Shown: positions 1 through 50,256 of the stretch, piece after piece | How positions within the stretch are numbered: position 1 is the first letter of the stretch | How the letters are laid out: each line of letters starts with the position of its first letter | Sequence record: NC_054913.1 | DNA: 64,000 bases | From: Escherichia phage F2 | Reading direction: 5' to 3' (one strand) | The notes under the pieces: model-generated | The model's database searches: none | Told to the model about the DNA's origin: nothing | The model's input: the letters and a program-made list of their open reading frames with translations, nothing else | Position numbers and translations under genes: made by a program

Positions 1-337
1 ATCATCTGCCGGTATTAATCTTAAAGATAAGAAAGGTCACCATGCGTATGGAATGTTCCAAAATTATCTACCAACAATGAGGGCAAGAATTAACCGGCTT
101 GGTTATAATATGTCTGATGCCCAAATTAAGAAAATGCTATCTAAGCGGTCTAATTCAGCCAGATGGGCTTATATCGAATTTTCTTATTGGTTAAATATAC
201 ATAACGGGGATATAAGAAAAGCTATATCCTCATATAATGCGGGATGGAAGACGAGTGCTGGAAGTAAATATGCTTCTGAAGTCCTAGAAAAGGCTAATTA
301 CCTTAAATCAAACAAACTACTGGAAATAAAAGAATGA
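1..337 (+). CDS. lytic transglycosylase-like protein, 5'-truncated at window edge
   Basis: Reading frame open from base 2; SLT-like motifs (AYGMFQ, SYNAG); track ORF 53..337 is its 3' part. Confidence 0.5.
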   Translation, partial: SSAGINLKDKKGHHAYGMFQNYLPTMRARINRLGYNMSDAQIKKMLSKRSNSARWAYIEFSYWLNIHNGDIRKAISSYNAGWKTSAGSKYASEVLEKANYLKSNKLLEIKE

Positions 338-681
338 CCAAAATGTTGGCTTTAATAGTTGGCTTGGTTTCATTTAACGCTCTTGCTAATACTACATATA
401 CTGATGTAACGGAGTATACAAACAGAACGGCATCTGATTATTGTGGTCAAAGTCAAGAGTGTAAAGTAGATTTTTCACAAAAATTGTTATATGCGTATAA
501 AGACGGAGAAAAAGATGGGGCGTCTAGTAGGTTCAAGGCGTCTACCTTAATTAAAAGATACTATAAAAAATGGCAAATATTAGAATGCTCGGTGGCGGAA
601 CCTAAAGATAAGGCAGCATGCAATTCTATGGTGGACCGTCTAGTTGACTCTTATACTAGAGGACTTGCAGCAAGTGATTAA
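334..681 (+). CDS. hypothetical secreted protein
   Basis: ATG overlapping upstream stop (ATGA); hydrophobic N-terminal signal-peptide-like segment MTKMLALIVGLVSFNALA. Confidence 0.55.
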   Translation: MTKMLALIVGLVSFNALANTTYTDVTEYTNRTASDYCGQSQECKVDFSQKLLYAYKDGEKDGASSRFKASTLIKRYYKKWQILECSVAEPKDKAACNSMVDRLVDSYTRGLAASD

Positions 682-1141
682 AAACTATATCAAGGGCGAT
701 ATTGTCGCCCTGTTTTCTAAAGGTAATAATATTGCTCATGGGTGTAATTGTTTTCATACAATGGGCGCTGGTGTGGCAGGACAATTAGCAAAGGCTTATC
801 CAAAAATTCTAGAAGCCGATAAACTTCAAACCGAATTCGGAGACGAGTCTAAACTCGGGACTTATTCGGTTTATGAAAAATATTTTAAGACCCATAAAGC
901 TTATTGCTTTAATCTTTATACGCAGTTTGAGCCGGGACCTAATTTTGAGTACTATGCTTTAATGAATTGTATAATAGAATTAAATGAATTCGGAAAGAAT
1001 AAGATAACAAAGCCTGTAATTTATATGCCAAGAATTGGTGCAGGTATCGGTGGTGGAAACTGGGATGTCATCGAAGAGATTTTAGATACGTATTCCACTA
1101 AACTAGAAATTGTGATTGTTGATTGGGAACCGTTATTATGA
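644..1141 (+). CDS. macro domain (ADP-ribose binding/processing) protein
   Basis: Motifs HGCNCFHTMGAGVAGQL and IGAGIGGG typical of macro domains; ORF begins at TTG 644, GTG 674 is an alternative start; no ATG in frame. Confidence 0.6.
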   Translation: MTLILEDLQQVIKNYIKGDIVALFSKGNNIAHGCNCFHTMGAGVAGQLAKAYPKILEADKLQTEFGDESKLGTYSVYEKYFKTHKAYCFNLYTQFEPGPNFEYYALMNCIIELNEFGKNKITKPVIYMPRIGAGIGGGNWDVIEEILDTYSTKLEIVIVDWEPLL

Positions 1142-1741: not shown

Positions 1742-2323
1742 ATGGCTAGTTTAATTTTTACATATGCCGCTATGAACGCTGGTAAGTCTGCTTCATTACT
1801 TACTGCCGCACATAACTATAAAGAACGTGGCATGGGTGTATTAGTTCTTAAACCGGCTATTGATACTCGCGATTCAAAAGGTGAAATAGTCTCTCGTATT
1901 GGTATTCGTCAGGAAGCCAATATAATTACAAAAGACATGGATATCTTTGAATTCTATAAATGGGCTGCAGCACAAAAGGATATTCATTGTGTATTTGTTG
2001 ACGAAGCTCAGTTCTTAACTACTGAAAAGGTGTATCAACTTAGTCGTATTGTTGACGTATACAATGTGCCGGTAATGGCATATGGACTACGAACAGATTT
2101 TAAAGGTAATCTATTTGAAGGTTCTCAAGCATTAATGGCTATTGCCGATAAGCTTGTTGAACTTAAAGGTGTCTGTCATTGTGGTAAAAAGGCCACAATG
2201 GTAGCTAGAGTCACGGAAGACGGACTTCCAATTACAGATGGCAGTCAAATTGAAATTGGTGATACCGATAGATATGTGTCATTATGCCGGAAGCATTGGA
2301 ATGATTTGACAGGGTTGTTATAA
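1742..2323 (+). CDS. tk: thymidine kinase
   Basis: P-loop NAGKSASLL, C-terminal CxCG zinc motif, 193 aa; strong resemblance to T4 Tk. Confidence 0.95.
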   Translation: MASLIFTYAAMNAGKSASLLTAAHNYKERGMGVLVLKPAIDTRDSKGEIVSRIGIRQEANIITKDMDIFEFYKWAAAQKDIHCVFVDEAQFLTTEKVYQLSRIVDVYNVPVMAYGLRTDFKGNLFEGSQALMAIADKLVELKGVCHCGKKATMVARVTEDGLPITDGSQIEIGDTDRYVSLCRKHWNDLTGLL

Positions 2324-49119: not shown

Positions 49120-49120
49120 T

Positions 49121-49300
49121 ATGGACCTGATGAGTATGTTTGATGAGCCCGAAGTTGAGGCTCCTAAAGTGCATCGTAGTGAACTTGTTGATGAACTAGA
49201 TAGTATTATACAACGTCACGGCTTTAGTTTACCTGTCGAAGCCCTGAAAGACCTTGCATCTTATTATGACGACCCTCCACCATGGAGTCCTTGGAAATGA
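49121..49300 (+). CDS. hypothetical protein
   Basis: ATG 49121. Confidence 0.45.
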   Translation: MDLMSMFDEPEVEAPKVHRSELVDELDSIIQRHGFSLPVEALKDLASYYDDPPPWSPWK

Positions 49301-49461
49301 AAGAGAAATTTAAAGAGAAATTCTTACTAGAAATCAAGGAAAAAGACTTTGAGATATGGTATCGAATGGTGAAAGGGTTGACATTGCTTTTTAAAGCATC
49401 CTTATTCATGTTAGAACAACCTGGCCCTGATGGGCCTTTAGTAGGAAAGCTTAAAAAGTAG
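49297..49461 (+). CDS. small hypothetical protein (54 aa)
   Basis: ATG overlapping upstream stop; below track cutoff. Confidence 0.3.
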   Translation: MKEKFKEKFLLEIKEKDFEIWYRMVKGLTLLFKASLFMLEQPGPDGPLVGKLKK

Positions 49462-49647
49462 TTTACATTCCCTCCTCTCGTGTTATGATAGGCTTATCTT
49501 TAAATGGAGGTCTATCATGACATGTCAATCTGAACTTCAAGAACGCGAATACCTAACAAAATCATTCATTTAAAAATGTTGAATTTTTAGTGTACAAACT
49601 CTTCCGATGATGATACTATACCTTTATCAACCACAGGAGAAACCTAA

Positions 49648-50256
49648 ATGTTTATGCCGTATAACGAGTGTGAAATTGAAGAAATGGTTCGTCGTGCTCA
49701 AAACCCAGAATATCAAGATGTATTGCAGTATGAAATTGATAGTCAATTCAGCGACATTGAACAAAGTGTACTGTGGCAGTGTATGGAAAACAAGCCAGAC
49801 TGTATTCAACAGGAGTTAAGTTCAATCGTTCGTAGAAATTGGACGTCTTCTGTTCCTGAGACAATGTATCGTGGAATCTCTAAGAAAACTATGGCCACAC
49901 TCGATGATAAAGGCATTGGTAGTATTATTAAATTTGACAGAGTAATGAGCTTCAGTCCGGTGTTTGGTGTAGCACGTAACTTCGCTTCATATAATTTTTA
50001 TGGAACATTTAATATGTTCTGCATCAAAGATGCACCATTTGCTTTCAACTTCCGTGAACATATGCTTAATATGATTCTGGCTGCACCATCTTGTGAGTTC
50101 AATGGAGCTTTCCCTGAAGCGACAAGACGGTCTAATGCTAGACTTATATCTGACGAATGTGAATTTATGCTCCCTATAGGGACTACACTGCGTGTAGATT
50201 CTATTATTCAAGATGGACGTTATACAATCTGGAATCTGTCTATTGTTGGTTACTGA
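49648..50256 (+). CDS. ADP-ribosyltransferase (ModA/ModB-like)
   Basis: R-S-ExE triad candidates: MYRGIS, SFSPVFGVA, DECEF; about 200 aa as T4 Mod proteins; GGAGAA RBS. Confidence 0.65.
   Translation: MFMPYNECEIEEMVRRAQNPEYQDVLQYEIDSQFSDIEQSVLWQCMENKPDCIQQELSSIVRRNWTSSVPETMYRGISKKTMATLDDKGIGSIIKFDRVMSFSPVFGVARNFASYNFYGTFNMFCIKDAPFAFNFREHMLNMILAAPSCEFNGAFPEATRRSNARLISDECEFMLPIGTTLRVDSIIQDGRYTIWNLSIVGY

What the first reader, a model, noticed from the sequence alone, without database searches (positions are those of the whole stretch)
644..1141. Macro-domain protein in the tk-upstream accessory region
Macro domains bind or hydrolyse ADP-ribose derivatives. The phage also encodes an R-S-ExE ADP-ribosyltransferase (49648-50256), so this could reverse or read ADP-ribosylation, or counter host ADP-ribose/NAD-based defence signalling. 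The start codon is non-ATG (TTG or GTG).
Basis: partly seen in the sequence, partly recalled or inferred. Interest (0 to 1): 0.5.

Follow-up and report, generated by a model that had tools for sequence, protein, structure and literature searches.

The report
T-even phage anti-DarT2 macrodomain (Tk.4/AdfM)

Summary
A macrodomain protein is encoded just upstream of tk on the + strand. The real coding sequence is 674-1141 (155 aa, GTG start), not 644-1141. The window comes from a Mosigvirus (RB69/JS09/ST0-like T-even phage).

A 2025 preprint showed that T4 tk.4 (renamed adfM) is the one T4 gene needed to resist DarTG2, whose toxin ADP-ribosylates thymidine in single-stranded DNA. The most likely function here is removal of ADP-ribose from phage DNA. 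No biochemistry exists for this family.

One detail I did not find discussed: the catalytic lysine of DarG (K80), TARG1 (K84) and PhiKZ AdfM (K78) is an invariant glutamine here (Q84, 261 of 261 relatives). Streptomyces SCO6735 has the same glutamine and also cleaves thymidine-linked ADP-ribose.

A link to the phage's own Mod-type ADP-ribosyltransferase is not supported. Verdict: already known, low to moderate interest.

The parts
674..1141 (+). tk.4 / adfM ortholog: a stand-alone ALC1-like macrodomain of 155 aa with a GTG start. Key residues in 155-aa numbering: D9, H22, N25, G31-x-G33, D49, N80-L-Y82-T83-Q84, P119-x-I-G122-x-G124-I-G-G-G-x-W130.
658..663 (+). Shine-Dalgarno-like AGAGGA, 10 nt before the GTG start; it lies inside the 3' end of vs.
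   Evidence: GAGG is invariant in the alignment of the window, T4, JS98 and SA79RD.
334..681 (+). vs (valyl-tRNA synthetase modifier). Its stop codon overlaps the tk.4 start by 8 nt (GTGATTAA), an arrangement that suggests translational coupling.
   Evidence: PHROG 1256 at E=6.7e-35. ORF list. The same adjacency occurs in T4, JS98 and SA79RD.
693..711 (+). Conserved 8-bp GC-rich hairpin (AGGGCGAT-ATT-GTCGCCCT) inside codons 7-13 of tk.4. Its role is unknown.
   Evidence: Terminator-like hit. The stem is the same in T4, JS98 and UPWr_E1 (one U.G to U-A change in UPWr_E1). It is built from rare codons.
956..980 (+). MotA-type middle-promoter-like sequence (GCTT-N15-TAGAAT) inside tk.4. It would drive the downstream small ORFs and tk.
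   Evidence: Annotated at the homologous position in phage SA79RD. The sequence was read. Not tested.
1742..2323 (+). tk (thymidine kinase), the landmark that fixes the synteny.
   Evidence: ORF list. Annotation in relatives.

Best explanation
Window 674-1141 encodes the Mosigvirus ortholog of T4 Tk.4, recently renamed AdfM (anti-DarT factor, macrodomain). It is a 155-aa stand-alone macrodomain in the regB - vs.1 - vs - tk.4 - tk gene block, and it is probably translationally coupled to vs.

Proposed mechanism: the host DarT2 toxin, activated by infection, transfers ADP-ribose from NAD+ onto thymidine in single-stranded phage DNA and so blocks replication. The phage macrodomain binds that ADP-ribose in its glycine-rich pocket (GAG at 31-33 and GAGIGGG at 122-128). 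It then hydrolyses the ribose-thymine bond, restoring normal DNA.

It acts as an orphan antitoxin. It has no DarT-binding domain and no toxin gene beside it. Catalysis probably does not use DarG's lysine. The equivalent residue is an invariant glutamine (Q84), as in Streptomyces SCO6735, where the glutamine positions the substrate for a water-mediated reaction.

Shown here: the fold, the binding motifs, orthology and synteny with T4 tk.4, and the glutamine-for-lysine substitution. Shown in the literature: the T4 tk.4 knockout is sensitive to DarTG2. Inferred: that this ortholog does the same, that the activity is enzymatic, and that the mechanism is of the SCO6735 type.
For: Orthology:
- 84% identity over the full length, without gaps, to T4 Tk.4.
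- Same gene order in T4, JS98 and a Mosigvirus relative.

Fold:
- pLDDT 94.4.
- Foldseek gives the same set.
- DarG is the only hit in both PADLOC (31.8 bits) and NCBIfam (30.2 bits).

Function of the T4 ortholog:
- tk.4 was the single significant hit in a transposon screen on a DarTG2 host, and a clean knockout was sensitised (bioRxiv 10.1101/2025.11.20.689424).
- T4 lacking adfA and adfN stays DarTG2-resistant, so another factor was expected (PMC11825919).

Active site:
- N25 aligns with DarG N22 and PhiKZ AdfM N23; the N23A mutation reduces PhiKZ AdfM activity.
- Q84 aligns with DarG K80, TARG1 K84 and PhiKZ K78 (MAFFT and hhalign).
- Q84 also aligns with SCO6735 Q85 (hhalign probability 98.7%).
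- SCO6735 removes DarT-made thymidine ADP-ribose, and Q85A/E abolishes this (PMC9411070).
- Q84, Y82 and D49 are invariant in 261/261 relatives, and N25 in 260/261.

Association: one relative is a fusion of this macrodomain type with a NADAR domain, the eraser of guanosine-linked DNA ADP-ribosylation.
Against: - No biochemistry exists for any Tk.4-type protein. The T4 evidence is genetic and comes from a preprint.
- The lysine that DarG and TARG1 need for catalysis is missing, so the family could act differently from DarG.
- SCO6735's DNA-contacting lysines (K34, K89) and its extra mobile loop are not present here (A32; gap in hhalign).
- Sequence similarity to Poa1p, an ADP-ribose-1''-phosphate phosphatase, is as good as to DarG.
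- Nothing was tested for this Mosigvirus ortholog itself. I could not retrieve data on RB69-group sensitivity to DarTG2.
Confidence: 0.75

Rival explanations
1. It is a small-molecule ADP-ribose-derivative hydrolase: ADP-ribose-1''-phosphate phosphatase (Poa1p-like) or O-acetyl-ADP-ribose deacetylase. This is the reading behind the database names 'phosphatase' and 'A1pp'.
Against: The names come from homology only. The residue under Poa1p F152 is G126, by my reading of the alignment of the F152A mutant chain. The only phenotype found for the T4 ortholog is specific to DarTG2. I know of no T4 pathway that produces ADP-ribose-1''-phosphate (my own knowledge, not tested). Such an activity could still exist as a side reaction.
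Confidence: 0.1
2. It blocks DarT2, or another ADP-ribose-based defence, without catalysis. It could bind the toxin, mask ADP-ribosylated DNA, or sequester an ADP-ribose-derived signal.
For: Catalytically dead SCO6735, DarG and TARG1 still inhibit DarT in vitro (PMC9411070). The DarG/TARG1 catalytic lysine is absent here. Pfam's ThsA_Macro model hits a relative.
Against: The active-site-equivalent residues N25 and Q84 are invariant or nearly so across 261 relatives, which fits catalysis or precise substrate positioning. Q85 in SCO6735 is required for hydrolysis. Masking ADP-ribosylated DNA would not relieve a replication block. The protein has no counterpart of DarG's C-terminal toxin-binding domain; it is 155 aa and a single domain.
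Confidence: 0.1
3. It reverses or tunes the phage's own protein ADP-ribosylation by Alt/Mod enzymes.
For: A Mod-type transferase is present in the same genome at 49648-50256. SCO6735 and TARG1 also act on protein substrates.
Against: T4 Alt and Mod enzymes modify arginine (my own knowledge). The protein substrates reported for ALC1-like macrodomains are acidic-residue-linked. The two genes are about 48 kb apart with no linkage. The T4 screen reported tk.4 as conditionally required only on the DarTG2 host.
Confidence: 0.04

Closest known systems
T4 Tk.4 = AdfM (anti-DarT factor, macrodomain; bioRxiv 10.1101/2025.11.20.689424)
   Same: 84% identical over all 155 residues, same length, same position between vs and tk, and the same motifs including Q84.
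   Different: GTG start instead of ATG, and an 8-nt rather than 4-nt overlap with vs. The DarTG2 phenotype was shown only for T4.
DarG2 antitoxin macrodomain (T. aquaticus 5M31/5M3E, M. tuberculosis 5M3I)
   Different: About 21% identity. Catalytic K80 is replaced by invariant Q84. There is no C-terminal DarT-binding domain and no adjacent darT. It scores 30 bits against the 250-bit equivalog cut-off.
Streptomyces coelicolor SCO6735 (5E3B) and Bacteroides BT1257 (2FG1/2AFC)
   Different: About 22-30% identity. The SCO6735 group has a 4-5 residue insertion after the glutamine (the mobile loop region) and lysines K34/K89, which are absent here. It is bacterial, not viral.
PhiKZ gp104 'AdfM' of chimalliviruses (PMC13309987)
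   Same: A phage-encoded stand-alone macrodomain that counters DarTG2. Its removal of ADP-ribose from DNA was demonstrated biochemically.
   Different: Only 18% identical. It is of the DarG lysine type (N23, K78), is imported into the phage nucleus and is expressed late. It appears to be a separate lineage that received the same name.
T4 AdfN (gp30.3), a NADAR orphan antitoxin against DarTG1 (PMC11825919)
   Same: The same strategy: a T-even phage carries a stand-alone eraser of DNA ADP-ribosylation. NADAR and this macrodomain type occur fused in one protein.
   Different: Unrelated fold, specific for guanosine-linked ADP-ribose, and encoded elsewhere in the genome, outside this window.

Membership tests
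Macrodomain superfamily (Pfam PF01661) | Profile score above the curated threshold | tested here: met
   27.4 bits against a gathering cut-off of 22, E=3.4e-6, covering profile positions 2-117 of 118.
Macrodomain superfamily (Pfam PF01661) | Three-layer alpha/beta macro fold with glycine-rich ADP-ribose-binding loops | tested here: met
Macrodomain superfamily (Pfam PF01661) | Binds ADP-ribose | not testable with these tools
   Needs ITC, a crystal structure or a dot-blot with purified protein.
ALC1-like macrodomain class (TARG1, DarG, SCO6735, Poa1p, ALC1) | Closest structural and profile neighbours belong to this class rather than to MacroD, macroH2A or PARG types | tested here: met
T4 Tk.4 / AdfM orthologous group | High full-length identity and conserved position between vs and tk | tested here: met
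   84% identity, 155/155 aa, no gaps. The order regB - vs.1 - vs - tk.4 - small ORFs - tk is shared.
T4 Tk.4 / AdfM orthologous group | Required for plaque formation on a DarTG2 host | not testable with these tools
   Shown for T4 only. It needs a deletion of 674-1141 in this phage.
DarG2 antitoxin (NCBIfam NF048014, PADLOC DarG) | Equivalog-level profile score | tested here: not met
   30.2 bits against a cut-off of 250. Only the N-terminal macro part of the 338-position model is matched. PADLOC DarG gives 31.8 bits over model positions 4-145 of 329.
DarG2 antitoxin (NCBIfam NF048014, PADLOC DarG) | Catalytic lysine (K80 of T. aquaticus DarG) | tested here: not met
   Q84 occupies that column in MAFFT and hhalign alignments. 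It is Q in 261/261 relatives.
DarG2 antitoxin (NCBIfam NF048014, PADLOC DarG) | Active-site asparagine (N22) | tested here: met
   N25 aligns with N22 and is conserved in 260/261 relatives.
DarG2 antitoxin (NCBIfam NF048014, PADLOC DarG) | C-terminal DarT-binding domain and an adjacent darT toxin gene | tested here: not met
   The protein is 155 aa and a single domain. Its neighbours are vs, DUF7202, a zinc-binding ORF and DUF7438.
TARG1-type hydrolase | Lys84/Asp125 catalytic dyad | tested here: not met
   Q84 sits at the K84 position and G126 at the D125 position.
SCO6735-type thymidine-ADP-ribose hydrolase | Glutamine at the catalytic-lysine position (Q85), essential for activity | tested here: met
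   Q84 aligns with Q85 in hhalign, probability 98.7%. Q85A/E is inactive in SCO6735 (PMC9411070).
SCO6735-type thymidine-ADP-ribose hydrolase | Extra mobile loop and DNA-contacting lysines K34 and K89 | tested here: not met
   hhalign needs gaps of 2 and 4 columns in the query (about 5 more residues in SCO6735) after Q84. A32 sits at the K34 position, and there is no lysine at the K89 position.
Poa1p-type ADP-ribose-1''-phosphate phosphatase | Residues probed by the deposited Poa1p mutants (H23, S30, F152) | tested here: inconclusive
   H22 aligns with H23. T29 aligns with S30, a conservative change. G126 lies under the F152 position (alignment; mutant list). The activity itself cannot be tested here.

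The most novel reading that the evidence does not exclude
Tk.4-type AdfM may not be a captured DarG antitoxin. It may instead be a distinct, very large, mostly viral branch of ALC1-like macrodomains. It combines DarG-like loop architecture with the SCO6735/ALC1-type glutamine, and it has its own invariant residues (D49, Y82). If so, T-even phages and chimalliviruses reached anti-DarT2 activity through different catalytic solutions under the same name. The glutamine type, like SCO6735, might also erase other ADP-ribose linkages (acidic-residue protein marks, possibly RNA marks), giving broader counter-defence than DarTG2 alone.
Probability: 0.35. Interest if true: 0.45.

Novelty: already known. 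Interest (0 to 1): 0.25.

Why it matters
DNA ADP-ribosylation by DarT toxins is a widespread anti-phage defence, and phage-encoded erasers decide which phages escape it. Recognising this gene as the adfM ortholog predicts that RB69-group phages resist DarTG2 because of it. This matters for host-range prediction and for choosing therapeutic phages. The invariant glutamine at the position of DarG's catalytic lysine gives a concrete mutational test of how this very common phage macrodomain works. It also cautions against assuming that the two proteins now called AdfM share a mechanism.

Tried and rejected
- TTG at 644 as the start. Rejected: T4 has an in-frame stop immediately before its ATG, which aligns with the GTG at 674. 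Matches from more distant relatives start at about residue 11.
- DarG membership. Rejected: the score is far below the equivalog cut-off, the catalytic lysine is missing, and there is no toxin-binding domain or neighbouring toxin.
- The gapless HMMER and MAFFT placement of BT1257 'IYKD' under 'LYTQ'. Replaced by the profile-profile alignment, which puts the BT1257/SCO6735 'MIGQ' glutamine under Q84 with an insertion after it.
- Shine-Dalgarno sequestration by a long-range stem around the hairpin. It appeared in the single-sequence fold but not in the four-genus consensus, so I dropped it.
- Genomic context of the Macro-NADAR-DUF4326 fusion. The neighbours are almost all unannotated, so it was uninformative.
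- The original DarTG phage-defence paper (Nat Microbiol 2022) was not held. RB69's behaviour on DarTG2 could not be checked.
- No biochemical study of Tk.4 was found in three further literature searches.
I reran it without that sequence.

Full report
**What is there.** The window matches RB69-group T-even phages (genus Mosigvirus) at 98.8-99.2% nucleotide identity over its first 2.4 kb. It begins at position 1 of the phage ST0 record. The mechanical ORF 644-1141 (+) exists. The coding sequence actually used is 674-1141, which gives 155 aa from a GTG start.

The evidence for the GTG start is as follows.
- The GTG aligns base for base with the ATG of T4 tk.4, and T4 has an in-frame TAG immediately upstream of that ATG.
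- A GAGG Shine-Dalgarno 11-14 nt upstream is invariant in the window, T4, JS98 and SA79RD.
- tblastn matches from more distant relatives (below about 85% identity) start at about residue 11 of the long ORF.
- A close relative is annotated from this GTG.
- Positions 644-681 belong to the preceding gene vs (334-681; PHROG 1256). The vs stop overlaps the GTG by 8 nt.

The gene order is vs.1 (partial), vs, this gene, three small ORFs (DUF7202, a phage zinc-binding domain, DUF7438), then tk at 1742-2323. T4 and JS98 have the same block, and there the gene is called tk.4.

**It is a macrodomain.**
- Pfam Macro scores 27.4 bits against a cut-off of 22.
- PHROG 335 matches at E=2.7e-66.
- By sequence, the best solved relatives are Bacteroides BT1257, yeast Poa1p, Streptomyces SCO6735, human TARG1 and DarG.
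- An AlphaFold2 model built on 65 relatives has mean pLDDT 94.4 and pTM 0.90.
- Foldseek agrees.

The protein therefore belongs to the ALC1-like class of macrodomains.

**What the ortholog does.** The protein is 84% identical to T4 Tk.4 over all 155 residues, with no gaps. A preprint of November 2025 (bioRxiv 10.1101/2025.11.20.689424) screened a T4 transposon library on E. coli expressing DarTG2. The single significant hit was tk.4. A clean knockout became sensitive to DarTG2, and the gene was renamed adfM. This fits an earlier result that T4 lacking both adfA and adfN is still fully DarTG2-resistant (PMC11825919).

DarT2 ADP-ribosylates thymidine in single-stranded DNA. Its cognate antitoxin DarG2 is a macrodomain that removes the mark. 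The preprint infers enzymatic removal by Tk.4 but shows no biochemistry. I found none elsewhere. [quoted passage not shown] It is only 18% identical to the window protein.

**Active site.** I recovered the DarG, SCO6735, BT1257 and ALC1 sequences from PDB alignments. I then aligned them with the Tk.4 family by MAFFT and by profile-profile comparison.
- N25 matches DarG N22, PhiKZ N23 and SCO6735 N27.
- H22 matches SCO6735 H24 and Poa1p H23.
- The motif N80-L-Y-T83-Q84 aligns without gaps with DarG's N-F-P-T-K. So Q84 occupies the position of the catalytic lysine of DarG (K80), TARG1 (K84) and PhiKZ AdfM (K78).
- The TARG1 partner D125 corresponds to G126.
- The same column holds Q85 in SCO6735 (hhalign probability 98.7%).

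SCO6735 efficiently removes DarT-made thymidine ADP-ribose. It rescues E. coli from DarT and is inactivated by Q85A or Q85E. Its authors propose that the glutamine positions the substrate for a water-mediated reaction (PMC9411070).

In 261 relatives (the window protein, 120 word-index hits and the rest of the 150 best representatives), Q84, Y82 and D49 are invariant, and N25 and N80 are conserved in 260. The family is equally close to the DarG group and to the SCO6735/BT1257/ALC1 group (hhalign scores 97.9 and 98.1). It has DarG-like loop lengths, but it lacks SCO6735's post-glutamine insertion and its lysines K34 and K89. D49 has no counterpart in DarG, TARG1 or SCO6735.

**Family size and association.** A profile search of 1.84 billion representatives found 18,134 proteins at E<=1e-3 and 1,193 at E<=1e-30. 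tblastn finds the gene in 2,791 phage records across many myovirus groups. One relative of 472 aa fuses this macrodomain type to a NADAR domain and DUF4326. NADAR is the eraser of guanosine-linked DNA ADP-ribosylation used by T4 AdfN. The fusion therefore ties the family to reversal of DNA ADP-ribosylation, although its genomic context was uninformative.

**Mechanism and rivals.** The best-supported reading is an orphan antitoxin that hydrolyses thymidine-linked ADP-ribose placed on phage DNA by DarT2, using a glutamine-based SCO6735-like active site (confidence about 0.75). Three rivals remain.
- A small-molecule phosphatase or deacetylase, which is the source of the database name 'phosphatase'. 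This rests on homology only.
- Non-catalytic inhibition or sequestration. This is possible because dead macrodomains still inhibit DarT in vitro. It is disfavoured by the invariance of the active-site residues.
- Reversal of the phage's own Mod/Alt marks. The ORF at 49648-50256 is a Mod-type transferase. However, those enzymes modify arginine (my own knowledge), which is not a known substrate of this macrodomain class, and the two genes are about 48 kb apart.

**Verdict.** The gene is annotated as a macrodomain protein or phosphatase in many GenBank records, and its T4 ortholog already has an assigned function. It is therefore already known, and interest is low to moderate. The only point I did not find discussed in the papers read is the invariant glutamine in place of DarG's lysine. 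This separates T-even AdfM from PhiKZ AdfM and gives a simple mutational test.

**Seen in passing.** An 8-bp GC-rich hairpin at 693-711, inside codons 7-13, has the same stem in T4, JS98 and the Krischvirus UPWr_E1, with one U.G to U-A change in UPWr_E1, although those proteins are only 44-84% identical. It is built from codons that are rare in this genome (AAG 0.26, GGC 0.18, GTC 0.11, GCC 0.13). It shows no covariation and is absent from four other genera. Its role is unknown.

Noticed in passing
window 693-711 (+), inside tk.4 codons 7-13: An 8-bp GC-rich hairpin, AGGGCGAT-ATT-GTCGCCCT, followed by GTTTTCT. The stem is the same in T4, JS98 (Dhakavirus) and UPWr_E1 (Krischvirus, one U.G to U-A change), although the proteins are only 44-84% identical. 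It uses rare codons: AAG 0.26, GGC 0.18, GTC 0.11, GCC 0.13. It is absent in Gelderlandvirus, Jiaodavirus, Roskildevirus and an Acinetobacter phage. There is no covariation and its function is unknown.
   Followed up: partly
window 956-980 (+), inside tk.4: A MotA-type middle-promoter-like sequence, GCTT-N15-TAGAAT, annotated at the homologous place in phage SA79RD. It would drive the small ORFs and tk downstream.
   Followed up: no
protein P0235; loci L011/L012 6001-7419: A 472-aa protein from metagenomic contigs fuses a Tk.4-type macrodomain to a NADAR domain and DUF4326. That puts erasers of thymidine- and guanosine-linked DNA ADP-ribosylation in one chain. Its neighbours are almost all unannotated.
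   Followed up: partly
window 818-820 (codon D49 of the 155-aa protein): D49 is invariant in 261/261 family members. It has no counterpart in DarG, TARG1 or SCO6735, although Poa1p has an aspartate at that position. I could not examine its place in the model relative to the ADP-ribose pocket.
   Followed up: partly
window 49648-50256 (+): This is the only Mod-type ADP-ribosyltransferase ORF in that stretch. It is about equally distant from T4 ModA (30%) and ModB (31%). T4 has the two genes in tandem. About 530 bp upstream (49120-49647) hold no ORF of 80 aa or more.
   Followed up: partly
window 334-681 (+), vs: The adjacent gene vs overlaps tk.4 by 8 nt. The same preprint reported it as the most strongly depleted T4 gene in minimal glucose medium compared with LB. 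Its start overlaps the vs.1 stop by 4 nt.
   Followed up: no
window 1-337 (+), vs.1 C-terminal part: The window opens inside vs.1 (PHROG 600). Its C-terminal sequence contains an SSYNAGW stretch that recalls lytic transglycosylase motifs. This resemblance is from memory, and Pfam gave no hit.
   Followed up: no
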